Shown: in pieces, positions 2,971 through 51,191 of the stretch | Layout: every line of letters begins with the position of its first letter | Position numbering within the stretch: the first letter of the stretch is position 1 | DNA from: Squalus acanthias | Lineage: Eukaryota | Direction: 5' to 3' | Length of the DNA: 64,000 nucleotides | NCBI GenBank assembly: GCA_030390025.1 | Contig: CM059431.1 | Coordinates: forward strand, 131,690,001 to 131,754,000 | Translations under genes and position numbers: made by a program | The notes under the pieces: model-generated | The model's database searches: none | What the model was told of the DNA's origin: nothing | The model's input: the letters and a program-made list of their open reading frames with translations, nothing else

Positions 2971-3899
2971 TACAGAAGGTACCTTTATTGTCCAATACCT
3001 AGTTCAACAATAGTGTGACTGTAGGCTTGTAACAGAACCATTGTTGTGTATACTGGATACTGTCACCTCATACATACCGTTATATGCATCCTCCTGTCAA
3101 ACAAAGTGGTTTGTTTTAGATAAAATAAATGAATTAACATAATGCAGCTCTCGCAGCGAGATTCATCAAATTCCTACATTCCGTGTACCTATAAAATAAT
3201 AAAATGAATCTCTGCCTCCATTCACTTTCAAGCTAGCTGTTTTTAAGCTAACTGATACAGTTTTTTGGTTAGCAGAAATATCGATGCACTGTGCTATTCT
3301 GGTGTCGCTGGCACTCACTGACTAAAGAGAGAGAGGTCTCGCTTTGGTCTGTGTGTGCACAGAAAGCCCTTTTCTGATTAAATTAACCCAGAATGGGTCT
3401 TCCACTGTCATTGACTGTAAACAAAGGAGGCCATCAAAGTTGATGGCTGGGGATGCTTTCTCAATATGGCTCTTTTAGCTGATTGATCCCTATGGTCATA
3501 AGCAGCTTCTCCTTTATCCGATATTTACCACAATACAGAACAATGACGGTGTTTCTCCAGTATTTGTCTAGTGTGTATTGAACATCTCCTGTGCACTGAC
3601 AAAACCAAAAGATCTAAATGGTTAACCAGCATGAGAACCATTCATAGCCTGTCATTCAAATGTTGCTGCTAAAATGTGCTTTAACAAGTAATACATTATC
3701 TGTAGGCTTATAATACAGATACTCTGCTATGATAGATCTGCAATCTGTAATTAGTTTATCACTATAATCATTAGCCTAAAGCCTAGTTTCGTAGAGCAAA
3801 GCCTGTAAAACTGGTTATTTACAATATCAAAAAGATCTGAAAAAAGCTTGCAGAGCTGTATATGTTCCAGGAGATACTCAACACAAATTGTTCAATTGT

Positions 3900-7477: not shown

Positions 7478-7923
7478 ACAAACGTTTGGCTTGAGGGCTG
7501 ACTTTCCATAGATCGCACCGAGATAGCTGCTCTGCTACGTACGAAACCCTGAGCCAGAATCAGGTCGTCTACGAATAATTTAGCACCAGGTCCCCCACGA
7601 ACGTGCTATGCGTAAACAGGAGAGAGGCGGCGCCCATCCGTCCGCACTCCAGCCCCGAAACGAACGGCACTACACACCGACATGAGTCGGCTATCCCAAG
7701 CCAACCAGTGATCGGCGGCGCTAGGGTATCGTTCCGTTTAGGGGGGATTCTGACTTAGAGGCGTTCAGTCATAATCCCACAGATGGTAGCTACGCACCAT
7801 TGGCTCCTCAGCCAAGCACATACACCAAATGTCTGAACCTGTGGTTCCTCTCGTACTGAGCAGGATTACTATTGCAACAACACATCATCAGTCGGGTAAA
7901 ACTAACCTGTCTCACGACGGTCT
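7478..7923 (-). pseudogene. Retroposed fragment of the 28S rRNA 3' end (~445 nt, includes the sarcin-ricin loop)
   Basis: Reverse complement gives AGACCGTCGTGAGACAGGTTAGTTTTACCC, CTCAGTACGAGAGGAAC (SRL), GAACGCCTCTAAGTCAGAATCC and GAAAGTCAGCCCTC...TTTGT (28S terminus); TSD TTATTAAG at 7451-7458 and 7924-7931. Confidence 0.95.
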
Positions 7924-9022: not shown

Positions 9023-9291
9023 TTTTAATGCTTGAGAACACTTCATGATTGAGCATTTCATCTTTCTGATTCAACATTTCATCTGTGAAAATGTATTACT
9101 GCTTCCCTGATGGCTCAGCAGGTTTAGTTAATGAACAGCTGAGCAATGCAGCCCAGGAAAGTCCCAGGTTTCGTCGCCGGTCTGTGCTGAGTTAGCTGTT
9201 ATCTGCTGGGATACAGGTAGAGGTGCTACAATTCATCTCCGCACCCTAGGGTCAAGGAAGCAAAAGTCAGTCAGGGTTTTCTATCCTGATT

Positions 9292-12200
9292 TTTTTTAAT
9301 TCAATCATGGGATGTGGGCGTCGCTGGCAAGGCCAGCATTTATTGCCCATCACTAATTGCCCTCGAGAAGGTGGTGGTGAGCCACCTTCTTGAACCCCTG
9401 CAGGCCATGTGGTGAAGGTACTGTTAGGTAGGGAGTTCCAGGATTTTGACCCAGTGACGATGAAGGATCGGCGATATATTTCCCAGTCAGGATAGTGTGT
9501 GACTTGGAGGGGAACTTGGAGGTAATGGTGTTCCCATGCGCCTGCTACCATTGTCATTCTAGGTGGTAGAGGTCGCGGGTTTGGGAGGCGCTGTCGAAGA
9601 AGCCTTGGTGAATTGCTGCAGTGCATCTTATAGATGGTACACACTGCAGCCACGGTGTGCCGGTGGTGAAGGGAGTGAATGTTGGTGGATGGGGTGCCAA
9701 TCAAGCGGGCTACTTTGTCCTGGATGGTGTCAAGCTTCTTCAGTGTTGTTGGAGCTGTACTCATCCAGGCAAGTAGAGAGTATTCCATCACACACCTTAC
9801 TTGAGCCTTGTAGATGGTGGAAAGACTTTGGGGGGGTCAGGAGGTGAGACACTCGCCACAGGATACCCAGCATCTGAGCTGCTCTTGTTGCCACAGTATT
9901 TATGTGGCTGGTCCAGTTAAGTTTCTGGTCAATGGTGACCCTCAGGATGTTGATCGTGGGGGATTCGGCGGTGGTAATGCCGTTGAATGTCAAGGGGCGG
10001 TGGTTAGACTTTTTCTTGTTGGAGATAATCATTGCCTGGCACTTGTGTGCCGCGGATATTACTTGCCACTTATCAGCCCAGGTCTGAATGTCGTCCAGGT
10101 CTTGCTGCATGCGGGCATGGACTGCTTCATTATCTGAGGAGTTGCGAATGGAACTGAACACTGTACAATCATCAGCGAACATCCCCACTTCCGAACTTAT
10201 GATGGAGGGAAGGTCATTGATGAAGCAGCTGGGCCTAGGACACTGCCTTGAGGAACTCCTGCAGCGATGTCCTGGGGCTGTGCTGATTGGCCTCCAACAA
10301 CCACAACCATCTTCCATTGTGCTAGGTTTGACTCCACCCAGTGAAGAGTTTCCCCCTGATTCCCATTGACTTCAATTTTATTAGGACTCCCTGAAGCCAC
10401 ACTCTGTCAAATGCTACTTTGATGTCAAGGGCAGTCACTCTCACCTCACTTCTGGAATTCAGCTCCTTTGTCCATGTTTGGACCAAGGCTGTAATGAGGT
10501 CTGGAGCTGAGCGGTCCTGGCGGAACCCAAACTGAGCGTCAGTGAGCAGGTTGTTGGTGAGTAAGTGCCGCTTCATAGCACTGTCAACGACACTTTCCAT
10601 CACTTTGCTGATGATTGAGAGTAGACTGATGGGCTGTAATTGGCCGGATTAGATTTGTCCTACTTTTTGTGGACAGGACATACCTGTGCAGTTTTCCACA
10701 TTGTCGGATAGATGCCAGTATTGTAGCTGTACTGGAACAGCTTGGCTAGAGGCGCGGCTAGTTCTGGAGCACAAGTCTTCAGAACGATAGCCGGGATGTT
10801 GTCAGGCCCAAGTCTTTGCTGTATCCAGTGCGCTCAGCCGTTTCTTGATATCACGTGGAGTGAATCGAATTGGCTGAAGACTGGCTTCTGTGATGTTCGG
10901 GACCTCAGGAGGAGGCCAAGATGGATCATCCACTCAGCACTTCTGGCTGAAGGTGGTTGCAAACGCTTCAGCCTTGTCTTTTGCACTCACGTGCAGGGTT
11001 CCGCCATCATTGAGGATGGGATGTTCATGGAGCCTCCTCCTCCCATTAGTTGTTCATCACCATTCACGACTGGATGTGGCAGGACTGCAGAGCTTTGATC
11101 TGATCCGTTGGTTGTGGGATCGACTAGCTCTGTCTATAGCATACTGCTTCCACTGTTTAGCATGCATGTAGTCCTGTGTTGTAGCTTTTTTAGATTAGCA
11201 CCTCATTGTTAGGTATGCCTAGTGCTGCTCCTGGCATGCTCTTCTACACATTTCATTGTACCAGGGTTGGTCCCCTGGCTTGATGGTAATGGTAGGGTCA
11301 GGGATAAGCTGGGCCATGCGGTTACAGATTGTGGTGGAATACAATTCTGCTGCTGCTGCTGATGGCCCACAGCGTCTCATGGATGCCCAGTTTTGAGCTG
11401 CTTGATCTATTCTGAATCTATTCCATTTAGCATGGTAGTAGTGCCCCACAACATGATGGAGGGTGTCCTCAGTGTGAAGCTGGGACTTCATCTCCACAAG
11501 GACTGTGTGTGCGGTGGTCACTCCTACCAATGCTGTCATGGACAGATGCATCTGTGACAGGTAGATTGGTGAGGACAAGTTCAAGTAGGTTTTTCCCTCG
11601 TGCTGGTTCACTCATCACCTGCCGCAGGCCCAGTGTGGCAGCTATGTCTTTCAGGACTCGGCCAGCTCGGTCAGTAGTGGTGCTACCGAGCCACTCTTGG
11701 TGATGGACATTGAAGTCCTTCACCTAGAGTACATTCTGTGCCCTTGCTACCCTCCGTGCTTCTTCCAAGTGGTGTTTAACATGGAGGAGTACTGATTCAT
11801 TAGCTGAGGGAGGGCGGTAGGTGGTAATCAGCAGGAGGTTTCCTTGCCCATGCTTGACCTGAAGCTATGAGTTTTCATGGGGTCTGGAGTCAGTGTTGAG
11901 GACTCCAAGGGTCACTCCCTCCCGACTGTATACCACTGTGCCACCACCTCTGGTAGGTCTATCCTGATGGTGGGAGGAGCTTAAGACATTGGTTGAAAGG
12001 TATGATCCTGTGAGTATGACTATGTCAGGCTGTTGTTTGACTAGTCTGTAGGACAGCTCTCCCAGTTTTGGCATAAGTCCCCAGATGCAAGTGTGGAGGA
12101 CTTTTCAGGGTCGACTGGGCTGGGTGTGCTTTGTCGTGTCCAAATCCGATGCCTAGGTCGATGCGGGTGGTCCGTCCGGTTGTATTTTTAATATACTTTG

Positions 12201-12502
12201 TCGTAGTGGTTTGTTACAACTGAGTGGGTGATAGGCCATTTCTGAGGGCAGTTAAGAGTCAACCACTAGACCAGACCAGGTAAGGACAGCAGATTTCCTT
12301 CCCTAAAGGGCATTAGTGAAGCAGATGGGTTGTTACATGGTCACCATTACTGATACTAGTGTTTTATTCCAGATTTATTTAATTAACGGAATTTAAATTC
12401 ACCCTCTGGTTGCCATGGCTGGATTTGAACTCACATCTGCAGATCATTAGTTCAGGCCTCTGGATTATTAGTCCAGTAACATAACCACTATGCTACCGTA
12501 CC
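9292..12502 (-). mobile_element. Full-length decayed 'LINE-A': tRNA-derived head plus single APE-RT ORF (CR1 group, Zenon-like C-terminus)
   Basis: APE motifs (KQQPDIVILT, DFNVHHQEWLG, EPARGKNLLELVLTN), RT motifs (QFGFRQ, ALDIKVAFDRV, PQGSVLGP, FADD), 3' end GCGACGCCCACATCCCATGA-A-rich; TSD CCTGATT at 9285-9291 and 12503-12509. Confidence 0.9.
12418..12502 (-). promoter_or_regulatory. tRNA-derived Pol III internal promoter at the 5' end of LINE-A
   Basis: TAGCATAGTGG (A box), CTGGA-CTAATAA-TCCAG anticodon-like arm, GAGTTCAAATCC (B box). Confidence 0.75.
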
Positions 12503-13174
12503 CCTGATTATTACCCAGTGACTCCCTGCTGGAAGTACATGTGTGTGGATGTTGGGTGAGGATAGGGTGAGTTATTAAAAGAAATATGTGAGGAAATTGA
12601 GGATGCATTAGTCATAATTTTCGAAAGTACTCTTGATTCAGGAGGGACATCGACAGATGATGTGAGGGGAGAAAACAATGGTGAATGGAATTCAGTGTGT
12701 GAGGTCATCCACTTTGGATCTGAGAAAGATAAATTGAAATATTTCCTTAAAGGTGAGAGACTAGGAGCTGTGGAGGAGCAAAGGGTTGTAGGTGTCCATA
12801 TGCACAAATTGCTAAGAGCTAGTGCACAGGTACAAAAAGTAATCAAAAAGGTTAGTGGAATTTTGGCCTTTATCTCGAGCAGGTTGTAATTGAAAAGTGA
12901 TCCTTCAGTTGTACAGAACCATGGTCAGACCCCATCTGGAAAACTGCGTTCAGTTTTGGGAACTGAAGCTCAGGAAAGATATATTGACCTTGGAAGGGGT
13001 ACAGTGATGATTCACCAGAATTTTACCAGGGCTTGAAGGGTTAAATTATGAGAACAGGTTGCATGAGCTTGGCTTGTATTCGCTTGAATTTAGAAGGTTG
13101 AGGGGTGATCTAATCGAGGTGTTTAAAATGATAAAGGGAATCAATAAGGTTGATACAGAGAAACTATTTCCTTT

Positions 13175-15691: not shown

Positions 15692-17480
15692 TCAGGAATA
15701 AAAGTTCTCAATTGGGGAAAAGCCAATTTTGCTAAACTGAGATGGGATTTAGTCAAAGTGGACTGCAAGCAGCTACTTGAAGGTAAATCGGTGTCAGAGC
15801 AGTGGGAGGCATTCAAGGAGGAGATCCTGAGGGTTCAGAGCAAGTATGTTCCCATAAAGAAAAAAGATAAAGAAAAAAAGGGAAGTTTAAGTCAGATACT
15901 GAGAGCTCAATACTGCAGAAAGCCTAGAGGAGTATAGAAAGTGCAGGGGTGCAATTAAAAAGGAAATTAGGAAAGCAAAGAGAGGGCATGAAAAAATATT
16001 GGCAAGTAACATCAAGGAAAACCCAAAGATGTTTTATAAATACATTTAGAGCAAGAGGATAACCAAAGAAAGAGTAGGGCCTATCAGAGACCAAAAAGGT
16101 AACCAGTGCATTGAGGCAGAAGACATGGGTATGGTTCTTAATGAATACTTTGCGCCTGTTTTCACAAAAGAGAGGGGTGATACAGGCATTGCAATCAGTG
16201 AGGAGGACTGTGAAATATTAGATGAAATAAACATAGTGAGAGAGGAAGTATTAAGGGGCTTAGCAGCTTTGAAAGTGGATAAATCCCCAGGCCCGGATGA
16301 AATGTATCTCAGCCTGTTAAGAGAAGCAAAAGAGGAAATAGCAGAGGCCCTGACCATCATTTTTCAATCCTCTCTGGCTACAGGTGTGGTGCCGGAGAAC
16401 TGCTAACATTGCATCGTTGTTTAAAAAGGGAGAAAGGGATAGACTGAATAATTACAGGCCAGTCAGCCTAACCTCAGTGGTGGAAAAATTATTGGAAAAA
16501 ATTCTGAGGGACAGGATAAATCTTCATTTAGAAAGACACGGATTAATCAAGGACAGTCTGCACAGATTTGTTAAGGGAAGGTTGTGCCTGACTAACTTAA
16601 TTGAATTTTTTGAGGAGGTAACAAGGAGGGTCGATGAGTGTAGTGCGTTTGATGTAGTGTATATGGATTTTAGCAAGGCTTTTGATAAGGTCCCACATGG
16701 CAGACTGGTCACAAAAGTAAAAGCCCATGGGATCCAGGGCAAAGTGGCAGGTTGGATCCAAAATTAGCTCAGAGGCAGGAAGCAAAGGGTAATGGTTTAT
16801 GGGTGTTTTTGTGACTGGAAGGCTGTTTCCAGTGGGGTTCCGCAGGGCTCAGTACTGGGTCCCTTGCTTTTTGTGGTATATATCAATGATTTAGACTTGA
16901 ATGTGGGGAGTATGATAAAGAAGTTTGCAGATGATACTAAAATTGGCTGTGTGGTTGATAATGAAGAAGAAAGCTGTAGAGGGGGTACAGAGGAGATTTA
17001 CAAGGATGTTGCCTAGACTGGGTAATTTTAGCTATGAGGAACGATTGGATAGGCTGGGTTTGTTTTCTTTGGAATAGAAGAGGCTGAGGGGAGACCTTAT
17101 TGAGGTGTATAAAATTATGATGGGGTCGAGATAGAGTGGACAGGAAGGACCTATTTCCCTTAGCAGAGGGGTCAACAACCAGGGGGCATAGATTTAAAGT
17201 AATTGGTAGGAGGTTTTAGAGGAGATTTGAGGAGAAATTTTTTCACCCAGAGGGTGGTGGGGGTCTGGAACTCACTGCCTGAAAGGGTGGTAGAGGCAGA
17301 AACCCTCACCACATTTAAAAAGTGCTTCGATGTACACTTGAAGTGCCGTAACCTACAGGGCTACGGACCAAGAGCTGAAAAGTGGGATTAGGCTGGATAG
17401 CTCGTTGTCGGCCGGCGCGGACACGATGGGCCGAAATGGCCTCCTTCCGTGCTGCAAATTTCTATGATTCTATGATTCTA
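15692..17480 (+). mobile_element. 5'-truncated, frameshifted CR1 LINE ORF2
   Basis: KSPGPD, NYRPVSLTSVV, YMDFSKAFDKVPH, GVPQGSVLGPLLF, KFADDTK; (ATTCTATG)n tail. Confidence 0.95.
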
Positions 17481-18755: not shown

Positions 18756-18995
18756 CTACCACCACCAACTGCAAGTTCCCCTCCAAGACACACATCATCC
18801 TGACTTGGAAATATATCACCCTTCCTTCATCGTCGCTGGGTTAAAAACCTGGAACTCCCTCCCTAACAGCACTGTGGGAGTACCTTCACCACGCGGACTG
18901 CAGTGGTTCAAGAAGAAGACCCAACACGACCTTCTCAAGGGCAATTAGGGATGGGCAATAAATGCCGGCCTTTCCAGTGAATTAATTAAAAAAAT
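18756..18995 (+). mobile_element. LINE-A 3' end fragment
   Basis: Matches the reverse complement of 9300-9530. Confidence 0.85.
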
Positions 18996-23420: not shown

Positions 23421-23835
23421 TGGCAGTTTTGAGAATTTGAGTTCATTTAAAAAATATCTGGAAATGGAAAGGTGATATCAGTAAAAGTGACCATGAAACT
23501 GTCGGATTGTTGTAAAAACCCAACTGGTTCACGAATGTGTTTTAGGGAAGGAAACCTGCCATCCTTACCCAGTCTGGCCTATTTGTAACTCCAATCCTAC
23601 ACCAATGTGGTTGACTCTTAACTGCCCTCTGAAATGGCCTAGCAAGTGAATAAGTTGTATCAAACTGCCAGAAGTCCTGGAAATTCTTCCCTAACAGCAT
23701 TGTGGGAGCACCTTCACCACACAGACTGCAGCGGTTCAAGAAGAAGGCCCACCACTACCTTCTCGGGGCAACTAGAAATAGGTAATAAATGCTGGCCTTA
23801 CCAGTGAAGCACATATCCTGAGAATGTATATAAAA
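23421..23835 (+). mobile_element. Internally deleted LINE-A derivative (5' region fused to 3' end), SINE-like
   Basis: 23421-23670 matches the LINE-A 5' region 29436-29685; 23672-23835 matches the LINE-A 3' end 18845-18990. Confidence 0.8.
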
Positions 23836-25701: not shown

Positions 25702-26450
25702 ATTTTTTAAATTCATTCATGGGATGTGGGCGTAGCTGGCAAGGCCAGCATTTATTGCCCTTGAGAAGGTGGTGGTGAGCCGCCTTCTTGAACCGCTGCA
25801 GTCCATGTGCTGTTAGGCAGGGAGTTCCAGGATTTTGACACAGCGATGATGAAGGAACGGCGATATACTTCCAAGTCAGGATGTTGTGTGAATTGGAGGG
25901 GAACTTGGAGGTGGTGGTATTCCCATGCGTCTGCTGCCCTTGTCCTTCTAGGTGGTAGAGGTCATGGGTGGGAGGTGCTGCCGAAGAAGCCTTGGCGAGT
26001 TGCTGCAGTGCATCTTGTAGATAGTACACCGCAGTCACGGTACGCCGGTGGTGGAGGGACTGAATGTTTAAGGAGGTGGATGGGGTGCCAATCAAGCGGG
26101 CTGCTTTGTCTTGGATGGTGTCGAGCTTCTTGAGTGTTGTCGGAGCTGCACTCATCCAGGCAAGTGGAGAGTAGTCCATCACACTCCTGACTTGTGCCTT
26201 GTAGATGGTGGAAAGGCTTTGGGGAGTCAGGAGGTGAGACACTCGCCGCAGAATACCCAGCCTCTAACCTGCTCTTGTTGCCACAGTATTTATGTGGCTG
26301 GTCCAGTTAAGTTTCTGGTCAATGGTGACCCCTAGGATATTGATGGTGGGGGTTTCGGCGATGGTAATGCTGTTGAATGTCAAGGGGAGGTGGTTAGATG
26401 CTCGCTTGTTGGAGATAGTCATTGCCTGGCACTTGTGAGGCGCAAATGTT
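25702..26450 (-). mobile_element. LINE-A 3' portion
   Basis: LSTIYKAQVRSVMDYSPLAW..LDTIQDKAARLIG; tail ATGAATGAATTTAAAAAA. Confidence 0.9.
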
Positions 26451-29148: not shown

Positions 29149-30696
29149 CATCTGGAGCATGTGTTGTAGCAGAAGGCATCTAATAAGAAACTTAAAAACT
29201 CCAAACCTTCTTTGGACTTGGCTAATAGAACTGTGTGAAATCTTTTATTCTTATAGACGAGCAACAACCAGTTCAGATCCCAGGCCTGGATCCGTTTTCT
29301 CAACAGAACAACTACTTACCTGAGTAAACCTCGACACAGATTTGCACTGAAAGACAGCTTAGTGGTTATGTTACTAGACTAATAATCCAGAGGCCTGGAC
29401 TAATGATTCGGAGACATAAATTCAAATCTCAGTATGGCAGCTGGGGAATTTAAATTCAGTTAAAGAAATAATTCTGGAATAAAAAGCTAGTATCAGTAAT
29501 GGTGACCATGAAACTTACTGGATTGTTGTAAAAACCCATCTGGTTCACTAATGTCCTTCAGGGAAGGGAATCTGCCATCCTTACCCGGTCTGGCCTGTAT
29601 GTGACTCCAGACACATAGCAATGTGGTTGACTCTTAACTACCCTCTGAATTTGCCTAGCAAGCCACTCAGTTGTACCAAACCGCTACAAAGAAGTATACT
29701 AAGAAGAAAACCGGACGGACCACCCGGCATCGAACTAGGCACCGGACTCAACAGCAGCACGCCCAATCAACCCTGCAAAGTCCTCCTCACTAACATCTGG
29801 GGATTTTTGCCAAAATTGGGGGAGCTGTCCCACAGACTAACCAAGCAAGAGCCAGACATAGTCATACTCACAGAATCATAGTTTCAGCCAATGTCCCAGA
29901 CTCCTCCATCACCATCCCTGAGTATGTCCTGTCTCACCGACAGGACAGACCCACCAGAGGTGGCAACACAGTGGTATACAGTTGGGAGGGAGTGGCCCTG
30001 GGAGTCCTCAACATTGACTCCGGACCCCATGAAGTCTCATGGCATCAGAAATCCTGCTGATTACCATCTACTGCCCTCCCTCAGCTGATGAATCAGTAAT
30101 CCTCCATGTTGAACATCACTTGGAAGAGGCACTGAGGGTAGGAAAAGCACAGAACGTACTCTGGGTGGGGGACTTCAATATCCATCACCAAGAGTGGCTC
30201 AGTCGCACCACTATTGACTGAGCTGGCAGAGTCATAAAGGACATAGCTGCCATACTGGGCCTGCGGCAGGTGGTGAGAGAACCAACACGAGGGAAAAACC
30301 TACTTGACCTCTTTCTTCCCAATCTACCTGTCGCAGATGCATCTGTCCATGACAGTACTGGTAGGAGTTAAGTGACCACTGCACAGTCCTTGTGTAGACG
30401 AAGCAGCAACAGAATTGTATACCACCACAATCTGTGACCTCATGGCCCGGCATATCCCTCCCTCTACCATTACCATCAAGCCAGGGGACCAACCCTGGTT
30501 CAATAAGGAGTGTAGAAGAGCATGCCAGGAGCAGCACCAGGTGTACCTAAAAATGAAGTGCCAACCTGGGGAAGTTACAACATAGGATTATATACATGCT
30601 AAACAGTGGAAGGAGCATGCTATAGACAGAGCTAAGTAATCGCACAACCAATAGATCAAATCAAAGCTCTACAGTCCTGTCACATCCAGTCGTGAA

Positions 30697-30797
30697 CAAT
30701 GTTCCCCCTAAGGTACACAGCCACACACCAATCGGGAGGTCCCGCGCAGGCAATTTAAAGGGACTGCTCACCAAAAAAAACATTAGAGGGAACATTG
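30697..30797. mobile_element. 101-bp hAT-type MITE
   Basis: TIR CAATGTTCCCCCTAA / TTAGAGGGAACATTG (14/15); 8-bp TSD GTCGTGAA at 30689-30696 and 30798-30805. Confidence 0.9.
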
Positions 30798-31389
30798 GTC
30801 GTGAATGGTGGTGGACCATTAAACAACTATCGGGAGGAGGAGGTTCCATGAATATCCCCATCCTCAATGATGGTGGAGCCCAGCACGTGAGTGCAAAAGA
30901 TAACACTGAAGCATTTGCAACCATCTTCAGCCAGAAGTGCCGAGTGAATGATCCATATCGGCCTCCTCCTGAGGTCCCCACCATCACAGAAGTCAGTCTT
31001 CAGCCAATTCGATTCATTCCACAAGATAGCAAGAAACGGCTAAGCGCACTGGGTACAGCAAAGTCTATGGGCCCCAACAACATCCCCACTGTCCTGCTGA
31101 AGACTTGGGCTCCTGAACTAGCCGCACCTCTAGCCAAGCTGTTCCAGTACAGCTACAACACTGGCATCTATCCAAAAATGAGGAAAACTGTCCAGGTATG
31201 TCCTATCCATAAAAAGCAGAACAAATTCAATCCGGCCAATTACAGCCTACTCTCAATCATCAACAAAGTGATGGAAGATGTTTTTGACAGTGGTATCAAC
31301 CGGCACTTACTCACCAATAACCTCCTCAACGATGCTCAGTTTGGATTGCACCAGGACCACTCGGCTCCCGACCTCATTACAGCCTTGGT

Positions 31390-32730
31390 TAAGGAAGTGG
31401 TAGCAGGACATTTAGAAAATCATAATATAGTCAAGCAGAGTTTGCATGGTTTTATGAAAGGGAAATCATGTTTGACAAATTTGCTGGAGTTCTTGAGGAT
31501 GTAACAAACAGGGTGGATAAAGGGGAACCAGTAGATGTCGTGTATTTGGATTTCCAGAAGGCATTCGATAAGGTGCCACATAAAAGGTTACTACACAAGA
31601 TAAGAGCTCACTGGGTTGGGGGTAATATATTAGCATGGATAGAGCATTGGCTAACTAACAGAAAACAGAGAGTCGGGATAAATGGGTCATTTTCAGGTTG
31701 GCAAACTGTAACTAGTGGGGTGCCGCAGGGATCAGTGCTGTGGCCTCAACTATTTACAATCTATATTAATGACTTGGAACAAGGGACCGAGTGTATTGTA
31801 GCCAAATTTGCTGATGATACAAAGATAGGTGGGAAAGCAAATTGTGTGGAGGACGCAAAGAATCTCCAAAGGGATATAGATAGGCTAAGTGAGTGGGCAG
31901 GAATCAGCAGATGGAGTATAATGTGGGAAAATGCAAGGTTATCCACTTTGGTAGGAAAAATAAAAAAGCAAATTATTATTTAAATGGGGAGAGATTACAA
32001 AATGCTGAGGTACAGAGGGATCTGGGGGTCCTTGTACATGAATCACAAAAAGTTAGCATGCAGATACAGCAGGTAATTAGGAAGGCAAATGGAGTGTTGG
32101 CCTTTATTGCAAAGTGAATGGAGTATAAAAGTAGGGAAGTCCTGTTACAACTGTACAGGGCGTTGGTGAGACCACACCTGGAGTACTGTGTACAGTTTTG
32201 GTCTCCTTATTTAAGGAAGGATATACTTGCATTGGAGGCAGTTCAGAGAAGGTTCACGGGGTTGATTCCAGAGATGAAGGGTTGTCTTATGAAGAAAGGT
32301 TGAGCAAGTTGGGCCTATACTCATTGGAGTTCAGAAGAATGAGAGGGGATCTTATTGAAACATATAAGATTCTGAAGGGGCTTGATAGGGTAGATGCAGA
32401 GAGGATGTTTCCCCTCGTGGGGGAATCTAGAACTAGGGGGCATAATTTCAGAATAAGGGGGCACCCATTTAAAACGGAAATGAGGAGGAATTTCTTCTCT
32501 CAGAGGGTCGTGAATCTTTGGAATTCTCTTCCCCAGAGAGCTGTGGAGGCTGCGTCATTGAATATATTTAAGGTGGAGATAGACAGATTTTTGAAAGGTA
32601 AGGGTTATGGGGAGCGGGCAGGGAAGTGGAGTTGAGGCCAAGATCAGATCAGCCATGATCTTATTGAATGGTGGAGCAGGCTCAAGGGGCCAAATTACCT
32701 ACTCCTGCTCCTACGTCTTATGTTCTTATG
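31390..32730 (+). mobile_element. 5'-truncated CR1 inserted in LINE-A
   Basis: [46 protein letters not shown] at 31385-31389 and 32731-32735; close relative of 44045-45403. Confidence 0.95.
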
Positions 32731-33286
32731 TTGGTCCAAACATGGGCAAAAGAGCTGAATTCCAGAGGTGAGGTGAGAGTGACTGCCCTTGACATCAAGG
32801 CAGCATTTTACCGAGTGTGGCATCAAGGATCCCTAGAAAAATTGAAATCAATGTGAATCAGGGGGAAAACTCTCCACTGGTTGGAGTCTCACCTAGCTGA
32901 AAGAAAGATGGTTGAGGTTGTTGGTAGCCAATCATCTCAGACCCAAGACATCGCTGCAGGAGTTCCTCAGGACAGTGTCCCAGGCCCAACCATCTTCAGC
33001 TGCTTCATCAATGACCTTCCCTCCATCATAGGGTCAGAAGTTGGGATGTTCGCCGATGATTGCACCGTGTTCAGTTCCATTCGCAACTCCTCAGATAATG
33101 AAGCAGTCCGTGCCTGCATGCAGCAAGACCTTGATGACATTCAGGATTGGGCTGATGAGTGGCAAGTAACATTCATGTCACACAAGTGCCAAGCAATGAC
33201 AATCTCCAACAAGAGAGAGTCTAACCACCGCCCCTTGACATTCAATGGCATTACCATCGCCAAATCCACCACCATCAACATCCTGC

Positions 33287-45200: not shown

Positions 45201-45403
45201 TGTGGAGGCTAGGACATTGAATATATTCAAGGAGGAGATAGACAGATATTTGAGCTACAGGGAAGTCAAGGGTTATGGGGAAAAGGCAGGAAAGTGGAGT
45301 TGAGGCCAAGATCAGATCAGCCATGATCTTATTGTATGGCGGAGCAGGCTCGAGGGGCCGAATGGACTACTGCTGCTCCTATTTCTTATGTTCTTATGTT
45401 CTT
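42272..45403 (+). mobile_element. Long CR1 LINE: ORF1 esterase C-terminus and disrupted APE-RT ORF2
   Basis: GLHLNHAGTSVLA; LYLNARSIRNK, IAITETWL, YRPPNS, MGDFN, SDHN; RT motifs; (TTCTTATG)n tail. Confidence 0.96.
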
Positions 45404-45579: not shown

Positions 45580-47323
45580 TGTTGTGTGTCACTCCCACCT
45601 TGCTAAATGGGATAGCTTCAGAACAGATCTGGCAGCTCAAAACTGGGGATCCATGAGGCGCTGTGGGCCATCATCAGCAGCAGAATTGTATTGCACGACA
45701 ATCTTTAACCTCATGGCCCGGCATGTCCCTCACTCCACCATTACCATCAAGCCAGGCGACCAACCCTGGTTCAATGAGGAGTGTAGAAAAACATGCCAGG
45801 AGCAGCACCAGGCATACCTGAAAATGAGGTGCCAACCTGGTGAAGCCACAACACAGAACTGCATGCATGCTAAACAGCGGAAGCAGCATGCTATAGACAG
45901 AGCTAAGCGATTCTACAACCATCGGATCAGATCAAAGCTCTGCAGTCCTGTCACATCTAGTCATGAATGGTAGTGGACAATTAAACAACTACAGAAGAAG
46001 GAGGCTCCGTGAGCATCCCATCCTCAACGTTGGCAGAGCCCAGCAAGTGAGCACAAAAGACAATCCTGAAGCGTTTGCAACCACCTTCAGCCAGAAGTGG
46101 CGAGTGGATGATCCATCTCGGCCTCCTCCTGATGTCCACACCATCACAGATACCAGACTTCAGCCAATTCGATTCAGGCCACGTGATAGCAAGAAGCAGC
46201 AGAGCATACTACATACACCAAAGGTTTTGGGCCCCGACAACATCCCAGCTGTCGTGCTGAAGACCTGTGCTCCAGAACAACACTAGCATCTACCCGGCAA
46301 AGTGGAAAATTGCCTAGGTATATACTCTCCACAAAAAGCAGGACAAAACCAATCCGGCCAATAACCAAAAAGAAAGAAAGACTTGCATTTATATGACACC
46401 AGGATAACTCCCTTGCTCTTCTTTGAAATAGTGCCATGGAATCTTTTACGTCCACCTGAGAGAGCAGACGGGACCTCGGTTTAACGCCTCATCTGAAAGA
46501 TGGCACCTCCGGCAGTGCAGCACGCCCTCAGTACTGCACTGGAATGTCAGCCTAGATTTTTTGCACAAGTCTCTGGAGTGGGATTCTGAACCCACAACCT
46601 TCTGACTCAGAGGTGAAAGTGCTACCAACTGAGCCACAGCTGCCACATCAAACAAAGCACCCCATCGGCTTACTCTCAGTCATCAGCAAAGTGATGGAAG
46701 GAGTCATCAACAGGGCTATCAAGCGGCATTTACTCACCAATAACCTGCTCACCGATGCTCAGTTTAGGTTCCGCCAGGACCATTCAATTCCAGACCTCAT
46801 TACAGCCTTGGTCAAACATGGGCACATGAGCTGAATTCCAGAAGTGAGGTGAGAGTGACTGCCTTTGACATCAAGCCAATATTTAGTGTGGCATCAAGGA
46901 GCCCAAGTAAAATTAAAGTTAATCGGAATCAGGGGGAAAACTCTCCACTGCGTAGAGTCATACCTAGCACAAAGGAAGATGGTTGTAGTTGTTAGAGGCC
47001 AATCATTTCAGCCCCAGGACATCGCTGCAGTAGTTCCTCAGGGCTGTGTCCTAGGCTGCTTCATCAGTGACCTTCCCTCCATCATAGGGTCACAAGTGGG
47101 ATGTTCGCTGATGATTGCACAGTGTTCAGCTCCATTCGCAATTCCTCAGGTAATGAAGCACTCCGTGCCCGCATGCAGCAAGACTTCATCAACATCCGAC
47201 TTGGGCTGATAATTGGCAAGTTACATTTGTGTCACACAGGTGCCAGGCAATAGCCATCTCCTACAAGAGAGCGTCTAACCACTTGCCTTTGACATTCAAT
47301 GGCATTACCATTGCCGAATCCCC
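45580..47323 (+). mobile_element. LINE-A internal fragment, interrupted by a DeuSINE
   Basis: AKWDSFRTDLAAQNW..KPGDQPWFNEECR, LLTDAQFRFRQDH. Confidence 0.88.
46368..46645 (-). mobile_element. DeuSINE (internally deleted)
   Basis: Head GCTGTGGCTCAGTTGGTAGCAC, Deu core, tail ATATAAATGCAAGTCTTTC. Confidence 0.85.
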
Positions 47324-48946
47324 TACCAATGGAGCAAGGGAATTTTAGATTTTGAAAACATTGTGTGCTTAAAGGAGTGCTGTGCTCTACAGGAATGTAA
47401 TTGGGGGGAGGGGGGGGTAAAGTTAGTAAAACAGTGATTGGTCTGCCAATAATCTGTTGTTTGTTTTTTAGATGAAGCTCCCTTTAAGGTAATTTTATTC
47501 TCGTGCTTTTTCTTCTTTACCATGCACTTTGATCAGCCACATAAATAGCAGAGTTGTCTGCTCCCGAGCCACCAATTGCATTCAGAAACAGGGCTGCTAG
47601 AAGCTGCACTAGAGGACACCATGGGGACTTTTCCTTCAATGTTTCCTTCCTTTCCCTGCAGAAGGGCCTTGTCTTTGCTCTGCACCTCCCCAGAGTAGAA
47701 GAGCTGGGATCAGGATCTCAGCTGTGAGGAAGATTGCAGCATAAAGCTGGATCCAACCATTCAGTAGTGTAGTGAATTGGTGGCTCCAGTCTGGCTAGCT
47801 AGCAGACATTCTCGTTAATGGAGTAGGTTGCATGACGGTGTATGGCTTGTAGTACACTCCAGTAAATTATACTCGAGCAATCCATGTGAATGTTAGTCCT
47901 ATTGATAAGATTACCATGCAATTTTAATTTGCTTTCCTTTACTTGACAATAATGGCACTAATAAGGCTAAATCATTTTTCTGATGGTGTGAACAATGGCA
48001 GTGTGACTCAATGTAAAAGGTGTGAGCTAGGGTGATTAGTGAGCAGAGCTCAACTACTACACTGTTACACACAAGTGACAAATACTCATAGAAATTGGTC
48101 CCTTCAGCAGGGAAGGATACTACTAAGTGGAGACAGTGGAGCATTTGTTTTAGAAGCAATATTGTCATTTGCTATTGTTCTAGGTTCCAACTCTTACGAT
48201 GCTTGTCTCCCCCTCACCACCATCAAGCAGCAAAGCAGTGAGTGTGATGACTTTGGTTCGTTCTATGTTGCACTCCTATGGAAGGTGAGGGCTGAGACAT
48301 CAATCTCATTCTAAGATAAGTCACTTTCATGTTGCAGTTTTATAACAGAGAAAGCCTGTGGCCTTTTTTCCTCCATTGGTAAGAAATAATGCATAGAGGT
48401 GAATATTGCTGAAATGAAGAGACAAAAATGGAAAATGAAAAAAACAGTTAAACCAACATAAAATGTTGGCATTTTGTCTGTTTAAGACCCTTGGTGACAA
48501 AGCACTGCCATACTCTATAACATATTACTATTGCAAAGCTATAACTCTCCAGTGCACTGCTTTCATATTTCACAGTGACATGCAATTTATTTTCATCTAT
48601 CATTCATGTGTGCTCTTTTTGTCATACAGCAGACATGACCGTTGACACAGAGTAGCTGTGTACCAGAACTAATGGGGCTCCACTAACAATGAAATGGAAA
48701 CAGGGCTCTTGGAAGAGGTCTGTATTATAAATGCCACAGAAGGTTGGTTCAAGAAAATGTCCTGATTTCAATGTGTGGAATGAGTACATTGGACTGTAAA
48801 CAGCTTTATGAGTATCTTGTGGATAAGAAACTGTTTAAAACCAGATGTTGAAATAGAACGTTTATTTGCTGTTAGATGATCAGATATAATCAGTACACCC
48901 TTATCTTAAGTCAAACCATATGCAAGAGTGTATAGAACAATGTTAT

Positions 48947-49283: not shown

Positions 49284-51191
49284 ATTTTTTAAAAATTCGT
49301 TTTATGGGATCTGGGCGTCGCTGGCAAGGCCAGCATTTATTGCCCACCCCTAGTTGCCCTTGAGAAGGTGGTGGTGAGCCGCCTTCTTGAACCGCTACAG
49401 TCCGTGTGGTGATGGTACTCTCACAGTGCTGTTAGGTCGGGAGTTCCAGGATTTTGACCCAGCGACAATGAAGGATCGGCGATATACTTCTAATTCAGGA
49501 TGGTGTGTGACTTGGATGGGAACTTGGAGGTGGTGGTGTTCCCATCCGCCTGCTGCCCCTGTCCTTCTAGGTGGAAGAGGTCGCGGGTTTGGGAGGTGCT
49601 GCCGAAGAAGCCTTGGCGAGTTGCTGCAGTGCATCTTGTAGATGGTACACACTGCAGCCACGGTACGCTGGTGGTGGAGGGAGTGACTGTTTAAGGCGGT
49701 GGATGGGGTGCCAATCCAGCGGGCTGCTTTGTCCTGGATGATGTCGAGCTTCTTGAGTGTTGTTAGAGCTGCACTCATCCAAGCAAGTGGAGAGTATTCC
49801 ATCACACTCCTTACTTGTGCCTTGTAGATGGTAGAAAGGCTTTGGGGAGTCAGGAGGTAAGACACTCACCACAGAATACCTAGCCTCTGACCTGCTCTTG
49901 CTGCCACAGTATTTATGTGGCTGGTCCAGTTAAGTTTCTGGTTAATCGTGACCCCCAGGATGTTGTTAGTGGGGGATTTGGCGATGGTAATGCCATTGAA
50001 TGTCAATGGGAGGTGGTTAGACTCTCGCTTGTTGGAGATAGTCATTGCCTGGCACTTCTGTGGCGCGAATGTTACCTGCCACTTATCAGCCCAAGACTGA
50101 ACGTCGTCCAGGTCTTGTTGCATGCAGGCATGGACTCCTTCATTATCTGAGGAGTTGTGAATGGCGCTGAACACTGTGCAGTCATCAGCGAATATCCTCA
50201 TTTCTGACCTTATGTTGGAGGGAAGGTCATTGATGAAGCAGCTGAAGATGGTTGAGCCTAGGACACTGCCCTGAGGAACTCCTGCAGCGATGTCCTAGAG
50301 CTGTGATGATTGACCTTCAACCACCACAACCATCTTCCTTTGTGCTAGGTATGACTCCAGCCAGTGGAGCGTTTTCCCCCTGATTCCCATTGACTTCAGT
50401 TTTACTAGGGCTCCTTGATGCCAGACTCGGTCAAATGCTGCCTTGATGTCAAGGGCAGTCACTCTCACCTCACCTCTGGAATTCAGCTCCTTTGTCCATG
50501 TTTGGACCAAGGCTGTAATGAGGTCGGGAGCCAAGTGATCTTGGTGGAACCCAAACTGGGCATCAGTGAGCAGGTTATTGGTGAGTAAGTGCCACTTGAT
50601 AGCACTGTCGATGACACCTTCCATCACTTTGCTGATGATTGAGAGTAGACTGATGGGGCGGTAATTGGCCGGGTTGGATTTGTCCTGCTTTTTGTGGACA
50701 GGACATACCTGGGCAGTTTTGCACATTGTCAGATAGATGCCAGTGTTATAGCTCTACTGGAACAGAGGCGTGGTTAGTTCTGGAGCACAAGTCTTCAGCA
50801 CGATAGCCGGGATGTTGTCGGGGCCCACAGCCTTTGCTGTATCCAGTGCGCTCAGCCGTTTCTTGATATCATGTGGAGTGAATCGAATTGGCTGAAGACT
50901 GGCGTCCATGATGGTGGGGACCTCAGGAGGAAGCCGAGATGGATCATCCACTCGGCACTTCTGGCTGAAGTTGTTTGTAAACGCTTCAGCCTTGTCTTTT
51001 GTGCCCACGTGCTGGGCTCCACCATCATTGAGGATGGGGATATTCATGGAGCCTCCTCCTCCCGTTAGTTGTTTAATGGTCCACCACCATTCACAACTGG
51101 ATGTGGCAGGACTGCAGAGCTTTGATCTGATCCGTTGATTGTGGGATCGCTTAACCCTGTCTTTAGCATGCTGCTTCCGCTTTTTAGCATA
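49284..51191 (-). mobile_element. 5'-truncated LINE-A (RT to 3' end), relatively well preserved
   Basis: PANYRPISLLSIISKVMEG, QFGFHQ, ALDIKAAFDRVWH, FADD, YKAQVRSVMEY. Confidence 0.93.

What the first reader, a model, noticed from the sequence alone, without database searches (positions are those of the whole stretch)
9292..12502. Protein-coding LINE with a tRNA-derived head and no TTTT on its sense strand: candidate Pol III-transcribed autonomous retrotransposon
Seen: one TSD (CCTGATT) brackets a 3.2-kb unit that begins with tRNA-like A/B boxes and runs into a single APE-RT frame, with no room for an ORF1. An independent copy at 29355 starts with the same head, so the head is part of the element. 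By eye I find no AAAA on the + strand across 9292-12502, 49300-51191 or 25715-26450 (no TTTT on ~5.8 kb of sense strand); even TTT is scarce, while sense A-runs are common. The few TTTT in the + copies (e.g. ~29804, 31280, 32805, 46225) sit where other copies differ, so they look like post-insertion mutations. The ordinary CR1 at 42272-45403 has many sense TTTT. Established: vertebrate Pol III terminates at T4 or longer, and LINEs are normally Pol II transcripts. Inference: selection removed terminators so Pol III can transcribe the whole RT mRNA, which would then need cap-independent translation. I cannot tell whether this family is already catalogued.
Basis: partly seen in the sequence, partly recalled or inferred. 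Interest (0 to 1): 0.9.

Follow-up and report, generated by a model that had tools for sequence, protein, structure and literature searches.

The report
LINE retrotransposon with a tRNA-derived head
A protein-coding jumping gene (LINE) in this fish-like genome starts with the tRNA-derived promoter normally seen only on short non-coding SINEs, and its coding strand avoids runs of T, so it may be copied by RNA polymerase III, which no known LINE is.

Summary
Window 9292-12502 (minus strand) is a decayed copy of an abundant ~3.3-kb LINE family with one APE-RT reading frame and no ORF1. It begins with a tRNA-derived head carrying A and B boxes. The head belongs to the family: of 29 other genomic copies, 17 carry a near-complete head, 6 a partial one and 6 are 5'-truncated. 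Two head variants co-segregate with sites in the reading frame. The partner SINEs are head + 5' body + 3' tail of this LINE, each of 7 with a different junction.

The majority consensus has no T4 on its sense strand, and 20 copies (56.6 kb) have six. That alone is not significant: composition-preserving shuffles expect 1.2-2.1 (P 0.07-0.25). T-run avoidance at synonymous sites is significant. T|T across codon boundaries is 7 against 17.9-24.7 expected (0 of 5000 shuffles), and T3+ runs are 5 against 9.8-12 (P 0.001-0.011). Sixteen ORF fragments of other LINEs in the same genome show no such avoidance (147 against 148.9).

Polymerase III transcription of the whole element is the best single reading (about 0.45) but is not shown; no RNA evidence was obtainable. 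Eight literature searches found no description of such an element. Repbase and Dfam could not be searched.

The parts
12503..12509 (.). 5' flanking copy of the 7-nt direct repeat (sense AATCAGG); possible target-site duplication
   Evidence: ambiguous because AGG may be part of the element
12403..12502 (-). tRNA-derived head (sense 1-100), with a duplicated anticodon-arm-like insert
   Evidence: Rfam tRNA 22.4 bits on a partner-SINE head, below the cut-off of 29
12485..12495 (-). A box TAGCATAGTGG (sense 8-18)
   Evidence: read; the A-box consensus is recalled, not tested
12421..12432 (-). B box GAGTTCAAATCC (sense 71-82)
   Evidence: read; aligned to the tRNA T arm
12214..12402 (-). 5' body shared with the partner SINEs; ends at the in-frame stop TAA (12214-12216) that opens the long frame
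9353..12213 (-). Decayed single reading frame: APE, then RT, then a CR1/L2-like C-terminus, ending at TAG 9353-9355. No in-frame ATG upstream of the APE in the consensus or in the best copy L056
9316..9348 (-). Conserved 3' hairpin (GGGCA..GCTGGCC TTG CCAGC..GCCC) with AATAAA in its internal loop
   Evidence: RNAalifold on 22 LINE and SINE tails
9290..9297 (-). Terminal A run (8 A) after ..GATTGAATT
9285..9291 (.). 3' flanking copy of the 7-nt direct repeat
29356..33285 (+). More diverged copy of the family (77-87% identity to the element) that also starts with the head; unmatched gaps at 30697-30797 and 31390-32730, the latter an unrelated insertion
49304..51190 (-). 5'-truncated copy (3' 1.9 kb), one frame with three in-frame stops
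25704..26443 (-). 5'-truncated copy (3' 0.74 kb)
45580..47326 (+). Internal fragment of the family with an insertion at about 46366-46657
23511..23818 (+). Short SINE-like derivative (5' body plus 3' tail)
18760..18980 (+). 3' tail fragment of the family or its SINE

Best explanation
SHOWN.
This is a copy of an abundant ~3.3-kb stringent-type LINE family of CR1/L2-like appearance with one APE-RT reading frame. Its transcribed unit starts with a tRNA-derived head carrying A and B boxes, followed by about 220 nt of 5' body. It ends in a conserved hairpin and an A-rich tail. Head and body are inherited as part of the LINE lineage. The very numerous partner SINEs are internal-deletion forms of the same unit: head + 5' body + 3' tail.

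INFERRED.
- RNA polymerase III initiates at the head's internal promoter, as on the SINEs. It reads through the whole 3.3 kb because the sense strand has been kept free of T-run terminators, and it stops in the flanking DNA.
- That full-length RNA is the template which the element's reverse transcriptase recognises through the 3' hairpin.
- The protein may come from the same RNA by unconventional initiation, since the frame has no AUG before the endonuclease. It may instead come from read-through or Pol II transcripts and act in trans.
For: Head belongs to the LINE.
- Of 29 non-self loci picked only by their match to the APE region, 17 have at least 97 of 110 head positions, 6 have 42-81 and 6 have none.
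- In 4 of the 17 the head is split off by insertions that are unrelated to each other.
- The 5'-truncated copies I inspected by eye break off at scattered points, and one (L011) in fact runs further upstream. No alternative 5' end was seen.
- LINE copies begin at the tRNA +1 region against unrelated flanks.

Head inherited with the LINE.
- Head variants A (8 copies) and B (10 copies) co-segregate with 4 ORF sites. Only 5 of 500 label permutations reach 4.

SINEs are deletion forms.
- All 7 SINE loci have a different 5'/3' junction.

T-runs on the sense strand.
- The consensus (3294 nt) has 0 T4+ and 7 T3. Twenty copies (56.6 kb) have 6 T4+, and 15 of the 20 have none.
- In the 900-codon consensus frame, T3+ runs number 5 against 12.0 under synonymous and codon-order shuffles (P 0.0012 each).
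- Under a shuffle that also keeps the CpG context, T3+ is 5 against 9.8 (P 0.011).
- Codon-boundary T|T is 7 against 24.7 (0 of 5000 shuffles) and against 17.9 under the stricter null (0 of 5000).
- T|T that would extend a run is 1 against 9.2; isolated T|T is 6 against 15.5.
- Real copies show the same: L056 6 against 17.9 and W49395 8 against 18.3.

Controls from the same genome.
- Sixteen ORF fragments of other LINEs give T|T 147 against 148.9, with 40 T4+ in about 10 kb.
- Control ORFs have 2.4-2.7 T4+ per kb, one of them at equal T content.
- T-rich windows are about 10 times denser in controls.

Context from a paper.
- In L1 assays, Pol III transcripts need only ORF2p (PMC2666806, abstract). 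This fits an element without ORF1.
Against: - There is no direct evidence of transcription. No run on record as RNA holds the stretch, and only contigs could be laid.
- Absence of T4 is itself within expectation for this composition: dinucleotide shuffle 1.6, P 0.16-0.18; synonymous shuffle 2.1, P 0.07-0.08; stricter null 1.2, P 0.25.
- Isolated TT and UA are depleted too: T|A 37 against 56.9, and TA o/e 0.64 against 0.83-1.05 in controls. This goes beyond what terminator avoidance needs and fits an RNA-stability or nuclease cause.
- The only copy in hand of the nearest related LINE (47% aa identity) is also poor in T-runs: T3+ 1 and T4 0 in 774 nt, with no T4 in its 1.3 kb of LINE-homologous DNA. 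Its upstream 95 nt are not significantly like any head, z<=1.9. T-run poverty may therefore predate the head or be independent of it.
- AATAAA sits in the hairpin loop and at the tail, and a CpG-rich patch lies at consensus 301-450. Both are compatible with Pol II.
- The controls are single copies, not consensuses, from an uncounted number of families.
- The T|T test was chosen after looking at the data.
- All characterised LINEs are taken to be Pol II units (Kojima 2024, PMC10886601, passages).
Confidence: 0.45

Rival explanations
1. This is an ordinary Pol II-transcribed LINE whose 5' UTR happens to include a SINE-type module. It was acquired once, by recombination or template switching with its partner SINE or with a tRNA, and then inherited. 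The head is a passenger or serves as a Pol II promoter or 5' UTR element. The poverty in T-runs has another cause, such as avoidance of UU/UA-cutting nucleases or U-rich destabilising, splicing or termination signals, or a composition typical of this clade.
For: - Prior: LINEs are described as Pol II units and Pol III as length-limited (PMC10886601 and PMC5786205, passages and discussion).
- T4 absence is not significant on its own.
- UA and isolated UU are depleted as well.
- AATAAA lies next to the A tail, and there is a CpG-rich patch at consensus 301-450.
- The related LINE copy is poor in T-runs without a recognisable head.
- Distant relatives (36% identity) are conventional proteins that start with Met.
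Against: - The explanation needs two unrelated oddities, a Pol III head at the exact 5' end and strand-specific T-run avoidance at synonymous sites, to coincide in one family. Sixteen fragments of other LINEs in the genome show no such avoidance.
- T|T that extends a run is depleted more strongly (o/e 0.11) than isolated T|T (0.39).
- The head is retained in two LINE sublineages and in a more diverged copy in the window.
- Full-length copies start where a tRNA-type promoter would start them.
Confidence: 0.35
2. Each headed copy is a fresh chimera. During reverse transcription the enzyme jumps from a headless LINE RNA onto a SINE RNA within the shared 5' body, so the head is never part of a LINE master gene.
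For: - LINE and SINE share about 200-300 nt of 5' body, which offers homology for switching.
- The window element's head is of the SINE-like GGTACGG type, with the SINE-like AGG in front.
- Template switching and chimera formation are established for LINE reverse transcriptases (discussed in PMC5786205 and PMC5499810).
Against: - Head variant and ORF sites 2 kb away co-segregate; 5 of 500 permutations match the observed count.
- No class of headless full-length copies with a common 5' end was seen among 29 loci.
- Most LINE heads (GGAAYGG, preceded by one G) differ at the 5' end from the sampled SINE heads (tAGG GGTACGG). That SINE sample was, however, picked by likeness to this element's head.
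Confidence: 0.07
3. This is nesting, not one unit: a LINE landed in or next to a SINE (or the reverse), perhaps through a target preference.
For: SINE copies are extremely common, with 2624 first-look candidates for the head alone, so chance adjacency happens.
Against: - The same head-to-body-to-APE continuity is found in 17 of 29 independent loci with unrelated flanks.
- No second SINE tail follows the LINE's 3' end.
- Junctions are colinear in the multiple alignment.
Confidence: 0.02

Closest known systems
L2-clade stringent LINEs with one ORF and their partner SINEs (eel UnaL2/UnaSINE1, zebrafish ZfL2-2)
   Same: - A single ORF2-type protein (APE + RT) without ORF1. L2 elements can encode one or two proteins and ZfL2-2 lacks ORF1p (PMC3880073, passages).
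- A conserved 3' hairpin shared by LINE and SINE (UnaL2 hairpin: PMC1636434, abstract start seen in the listing).
- The C-terminal ..WN.LP..FK..L pattern (its CR1/L2 character is recalled).
   Different: - Those LINEs are not described as having a small-RNA head.
- Here the LINE itself starts with the SINE head and body, ends in an A run instead of a short-repeat tail, has no in-frame AUG before the APE, and avoids T-runs.
- Clade membership was not tested by phylogeny.
RTE-clade LINEs with bipartite deletion derivatives and SINEs built on them (Bov-B/Bov-tA; Kojima 2018)
   Same: - About 3.3 kb with one long ORF.
- Non-autonomous forms made of the LINE's 5' and 3' parts.
- A SINE body derived from the LINE 5' region (PMC5786205, abstract and discussion).
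- A small overlapping upstream ORF and no AUG on the long frame; this feature of RTE-1 is recalled, not checked.
   Different: - In that model the head is added to the short derivative, and the autonomous LINE stays headless and Pol II-driven. The paper states that SINEs cannot encode a protein and found only RTE and Vingi 5' parts in SINE bodies.
- Here the autonomous element carries the head.
- The protein looks CR1/L2/jockey-like, but this was not placed on a tree.
tRNA-derived SINEs (SINE2) of cartilaginous fishes and other vertebrates
   Same: - A head with A and B boxes at the 5' end.
- A LINE-type 3' tail.
- High copy number.
   Different: - The unit here is 3.3 kb and encodes its own endonuclease and reverse transcriptase.
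- It is not the V-SINE HE1/HER1 pair as far as I recall those sequences (recall only; HE1/HER1 is named in PMC3747384, table passage).
Non-autonomous LTR retrotransposons with small-RNA promoters (Cassandra, Helenus, Ajax: 'TRIMp3')
   Same: A retroelement other than a SINE that carries a tRNA- or 5S-derived Pol III promoter as its own promoter (PMC10886601, passages).
   Different: Those elements are short (0.3-1.3 kb) and non-coding, and the paper argues that their autonomous partners must use Pol II because of Pol III's limited reach. This element is autonomous in design and 3.3 kb long.

Membership tests
LINE (non-LTR retrotransposon), APE-type | One protein with an N-terminal apurinic-type endonuclease and a reverse transcriptase | tested here: met
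   Best copy L056: Exo_endo_phos 38.2 bits (aa 43-243), Exo_endo_phos_2 57.1 bits, RVT_1 91.8 bits. Window fragments hit RVT_1.
LINE (non-LTR retrotransposon), APE-type | Dispersed copies, mostly 5'-truncated, sharing a common 3' end | tested here: met
   Window copies share the 3' end and differ in 5' extent. Genome loci do the same.
CR1/L2 group, stringent type | Conserved 3' stem-loop shared with the partner SINE | tested here: met
   The hairpin is predicted on an alignment of 22 LINE and SINE tails, -14.3 kcal/mol. Covariation was not counted.
CR1/L2 group, stringent type | RT groups with the CR1 or L2 clade in a phylogeny with reference elements | not testable with these tools
   No Repbase or Dfam reference set was available. 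The nearest named Atlas cluster is 'jockey'. An RTE-like architecture is noted as an alternative.
CR1/L2 group, stringent type | 3' end made of short tandem repeats rather than poly(A) | tested here: inconclusive
   Tails read ..GAA(C/T)GAAT followed by an A run, or by TTT then A. There is no clear microsatellite.
tRNA-derived SINE (SINE2) | 5' head derived from a tRNA with A and B boxes | tested here: inconclusive
   Box motifs are present. Rfam tRNA gives 22.4 bits on a SINE head, below the 29-bit cut-off, with the arms in order. ARAGORN finds none.
tRNA-derived SINE (SINE2) | Short and non-coding, dependent on a LINE's enzymes | tested here: not met
   The consensus is 3294 nt with an open frame of at least 900 codons encoding APE and RT.
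Pol III type-2 transcription unit | Internal A and B boxes near the 5' end at workable spacing | tested here: met
   A box at sense 8-18 and B box at 71-82. The boxes do not differ between head variants A and B, which differ at positions 20, 25 and 31.
Pol III type-2 transcription unit | No T4+ terminator between start and intended end | tested here: met
   0 T4+ in the 3294-nt consensus, and 15 of 20 copies have none. This is not significant on its own.
Pol III type-2 transcription unit | Pol III/TFIIIC occupancy and 5'-triphosphate, amanitin-resistant transcripts | not testable with these tools
   No RNA holder is listed, and only contigs could be laid.

The most novel reading that the evidence does not exclude
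This would be an autonomous, protein-coding LINE whose replicative RNA is made by RNA polymerase III from a tRNA-derived internal promoter. Its 3.3-kb sense strand would be kept free of terminators by selection at synonymous sites. Its SINEs would arise again and again as internal deletions of that same Pol III unit. It would be the first natural multi-kilobase coding Pol III transcript of a cellular genome, and a living intermediate between LINEs and SINEs.
Probability: 0.45. Interest if true: 0.92.

Novelty: new variant of a known kind. Interest (0 to 1): 0.8.

Why it matters
- Textbooks and the specialist papers I read (Kojima 2018, 2020, 2024) split non-LTR retroelements into Pol II-transcribed coding LINEs and Pol III-transcribed non-coding SINEs. 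They explain SINE length by Pol III's reach. A LINE that carries and keeps the SINE promoter at its own 5' end, and that avoids T-runs only on its sense strand, puts that split to a direct test.
- It offers a simple origin for a whole SINE population: internal deletion of a headed LINE, with no separate fusion event needed.
- It extends the 'LINE 5' part becomes SINE body' rule beyond RTE and Vingi.
- If Pol III is confirmed, it would show that Pol III can make a 3.3-kb template in vivo, and perhaps a messenger. It would link the lack of ORF1 to the type of polymerase.
- If Pol II is confirmed, the family is still a clean case of a LINE that adopted its parasite's 5' module. The cause of the UU avoidance would then need explaining.

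Tried and rejected
- RNA evidence: the look-up of sequencing runs listed no holder on record as RNA. Read laying on four coded runs gave contigs only, which cannot show starts, strand or level. It did show the family and many SINE-type deletion joints in several coded organisms.
- T4 count as the test statistic: dropped for lack of power.
- An ORF1 hidden in the 0.75-0.85-kb gaps between head and body in four copies: rejected, because the gap sequences are unrelated to each other.
- Discrete headless 5' ends at element positions 166/168 and 378/381: rejected on inspection. One copy continues upstream and the others break at different bases.
- TSDs in other full-length copies: none obvious by eye.
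- More copies of the related LINE: a search with its APE region returned only the main family. A search with its 5' region returned older SINE-like copies. The head of the related LINE copy could not be shown.
- A -1 frameshift at an A8 run joining the 76-codon upstream ORF to the main frame: the A8 exists only in my majority consensus, not in single copies. Not adopted.
- Clade naming from protein searches: hits carry no useful names.
- The search of earlier findings: nothing on this genome or on look-alike DNA.
Of six regions then fetched, four proved to be this same family.
Full report
WHAT IS THERE

Window 9292-12502 holds, on the minus strand, a 3211-nt decayed retroelement. Read in sense, it has these parts:
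- A roughly 100-nt tRNA-like head, with A box TAGCATAGTGG at 8-18 and B box GAGTTCAAATCC at 71-82.
- About 190 nt of non-coding body.
- A broken frame that encodes an apurinic-type endonuclease and a reverse transcriptase.
- A C-terminus of the ..WNSLP..FKK..L type.
- A 60-nt 3' UTR and eight A.

Pfam finds RVT_1 in the window fragments. In the best genomic copy, L056 (a 693-codon open frame), it finds Exo_endo_phos, Exo_endo_phos_2 and RVT_1.

ARAGORN finds no tRNA in the window. No Rfam family reaches its gathering score on the head. At a loose threshold the head of a partner SINE aligns to Rfam tRNA at 22.4 bits (cut-off 29). The D, anticodon and T arms are in order, and a 22-nt insert looks like a second anticodon arm. 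Two LINE heads did not reach E<=1. 'tRNA-derived' is therefore well supported by layout but not by score.

It is ambiguous, because its AGG may belong to the element. I saw no clear duplications in seven other near-full-length copies.

THE HEAD IS PART OF THE LINE

The window's genome is held as G000, 3.7 Gb.
- A search with the head alone found 2624 first-look candidates. Forty were scored, at 85-89% identity.
- A search with the 5' APE region found 7095 candidates. Forty were scored, at 87-91% identity.

Of the 29 non-self loci returned for the APE region:
- 17 carry at least 97 of 110 head positions;
- 6 carry 42-81;
- 6 carry none.

In four of the 17 the head is separated from the rest by 0.75-0.85-kb insertions that are unrelated to one another, so they are not an ORF1. 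The truncated copies I inspected by eye break at scattered points. LINE copies begin G|GGAAYGGTAGC.. against unrelated flanks.

Two head variants exist among the LINE copies: 8 copies read GTTATGTTACTGGAC and 10 read GTAATGTCACTGGGC. They co-segregate with four ORF sites about 2 kb away. Only 5 of 500 label permutations reach four such sites. The head is therefore inherited with LINE sublineages and is not added anew to each copy.

A more diverged copy in the window (29356-33285, 77-87% identity) also starts with the head.

A majority consensus of 20 copies is 3294 nt long. The copies are 93.0-96.2% identical to it, and it has one open frame of at least 900 codons. That consensus loses the frame in an indel-prone stretch near 560-640. 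The real copy L056 stays in frame from a stop 120 nt upstream of the APE motif for 693 codons.

THE SINES

All seven loci found with the head alone are short elements. Each is made of the head, 160-490 nt of the LINE's 5' end and 75-170 nt of its 3' end, and each has a different junction. The same variety of 2.8-3.1-kb 'skips' appears in contigs of four coded public runs.

LINE and SINE tails share a predicted hairpin, GGGCA..GCUGGCC UUG CCAGC..GCCC, in 22 aligned tails. The SINE population therefore looks like a set of internal-deletion derivatives of the headed LINE.

Kojima (2018; abstract and discussion read) found LINE 5' parts in SINE bodies only for RTE and Vingi. That paper treats the autonomous partner as a headless Pol II unit.

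T-RUNS

The sense strand of the consensus has no T4+ and seven T3. By comparison, A4+ number 17, C4+ 11 and G4+ 8. Twenty copies (56.6 kb) have six T4+, and 15 of the 20 have none. One of the six lies in the terminal A/T tail.

The absence of T4 is explained by composition: T is 19.7% and TT o/e is 0.73.
- Dinucleotide shuffles expect 1.6 (P 0.16-0.18).
- Synonymous and codon-order shuffles expect 2.1 (P 0.07-0.09).
- A stricter synonymous shuffle, which also keeps the first base and whether the next codon starts with G, expects 1.2 (P 0.25).

Statistics with more power do depart from expectation in the 900-codon frame.
- T3+ runs are 5 against 12.0 (P 0.0012, both shuffles), and against 9.8 under the stricter null (P 0.011).
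- T|T across codon boundaries is 7 against 24.3 from the marginals (binomial P 3e-5).
- The same count is 7 against 24.7 under the synonymous shuffle (0 of 5000) and against 17.9 under the stricter null (0 of 5000).
- Only 7 of 122 codons (5.7%) that precede a T-starting codon end in T. The figures before A, C and G are 14%, 22% and 31%.
- T|T that would lengthen a run is 1 against 9.2. Isolated T|T is 6 against 15.5.
- Windows with at least 4 T in 6 nt are 6 against 14.6 (P 0.005).
- Real copies agree: L056 has 6 against 17.9, and window 49395-51191 has 8 against 18.3.
- A-runs show no such effect.

Controls from the same genome:
- Sixteen ORF fragments of other LINEs (22-47% protein identity to the family) give T|T 147 against 148.9, with 40 T4+ in about 10 kb.
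- Three control ORF sets have 2.4-2.7 T4+ and 8.8-12.6 T3+ per kb. The family has 0 and 2.1. One control has the same T content.

Caveats:
- The controls are single copies, not consensuses.
- The T|T statistic was chosen after exploring the data.
- UA is also low: T|A is 37 against 56.9, and TA o/e is 0.64 against 0.83-1.05 in controls.

THE RELATED LINE

Next to one family copy lies an older LINE fragment with 47% protein identity in the APE region.
- It has a homologous 5' body from about consensus position 88-115 onward.
- It is poor in T-runs: T3+ 1 and T4 0 in 774 nt, T|T 7 against 12.2, and no T4 in its 1.3 kb of homologous DNA.
- The 95 nt upstream are not significantly like any head, z<=1.9.
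- Older short copies with the same body type do carry a homologous head, without the 22-nt insert (z 10.6, 9.3 and 4.5).

The head-body link is therefore old. Whether the related LINE had a head is open, and this leaves room for T-run poverty that does not depend on the head.

READING

Most likely, at about 0.45, Pol III starts at the head, as it does on the SINEs. It reads through a body kept free of terminators and yields the full-length template that the RT recognises by the 3' hairpin.

The long frame has no in-frame ATG before the APE, either in the consensus or in L056. A 76-codon upstream ORF overlaps it in another frame. Distant relatives at 36% identity start with Met about 20 residues before the same motif. 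Translation is thus unusual in any case. The protein could also be supplied in trans from other transcripts.

In L1 assays, Pol III-made RNAs need only ORF2p (Kroutter 2009, abstract). This fits the lack of ORF1, though L2-type LINEs can lack ORF1 anyway (PMC3880073, passages).

The main rival, at about 0.35, is a Pol II LINE that adopted its SINE's 5' module and avoids UU/UA for RNA-level reasons. It is supported by the prior, the AATAAA signals, a CpG-rich patch at consensus 301-450 and the related copy. Fresh chimeras (0.07) and nesting (0.02) fit the linkage and colinearity data poorly.

WHAT IS KNOWN

I ran eight full-text searches, reading the listings only. I read parts of seven papers:
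- Kojima 2018, abstract and discussion;
- Kojima 2020 and 2024, passages;
- Luchetti 2017, passages;
- Ohshima 2013, table passages;
- PMC3880073, passages;
- Kroutter 2009, abstract.

None describes an autonomous LINE with a small-RNA head. [quoted passage not shown] Repbase and Dfam could not be searched, so the family may be catalogued without comment.

Fragments 67-87% identical to the protein sit inside gene models of two shark species.

The following are recalled, not checked here:
- Pol III can make a translatable RNA in experiments.
- T-rich non-canonical Pol III terminators exist.
- The RTE-1 small-ORF layout.
- The CR1/L2 character of the C-terminal motif.

VERDICT

What is shown is a new variant of a known kind. 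The Pol III reading remains open and testable.

Noticed in passing
window 7480-7882 (-): A 3'-terminal fragment of eukaryotic large-subunit rRNA (model positions 3006-3399 of 3401, 177.7 bits) lies 1.4 kb from the element, far from any rDNA context visible in the window. It may be an rRNA pseudogene or retrocopy.
   Followed up: no
consensus nt 328-460; window about 12213-12090 (-); locus L056: The long APE-RT frame opens right after a stop and has no in-frame ATG before the endonuclease motif KVLLTNIWGL. The N-terminal stretch is Arg-rich and CpG-rich. A 76-codon ORF starting in the SINE-like body (ATGTGG..) overlaps it in another frame. Some subfamilies have a further out-of-frame ATG 92 nt upstream of the motif.
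   Followed up: partly
3' ends of family copies, e.g. window 49289-49303, loci L039, L041, L048 and SINE loci L003, L006: A tail variant reads GAATTT(T)(T)AAAA in place of GAATAAAAAA in 7 of 22 tails. It has T3 in five of them, T4 in one SINE copy and T5 in the window copy at 49304. That places a short T run exactly at the element's end.
   Followed up: no
consensus nt 560-640; window about 11985-11960 (-): An indel-prone stretch lies inside the APE region (..ATCACCATCCCTGGGTATGTCCTGTCCCACCAGGACAGACC..). Most copies carry different deletions there, and my consensus loses the frame in it.
   Followed up: no
window 42272-45403 (+), 16354-16974 (+), 31429-31953 (+): These are fragments of other LINE families (24-31% protein identity to the family). 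They are C-poor and A/G-rich with normal T-run density. The one at 31429-31953 sits inside the insertion that splits the family copy at 29356-33285.
   Followed up: partly
loci L070-L073 (G000 C3, C2, C1, C8): These are older short elements with the related body type and a simpler tRNA-like head that lacks the 22-nt anticodon-arm duplication. They suggest the duplication arose within this head lineage.
   Followed up: partly
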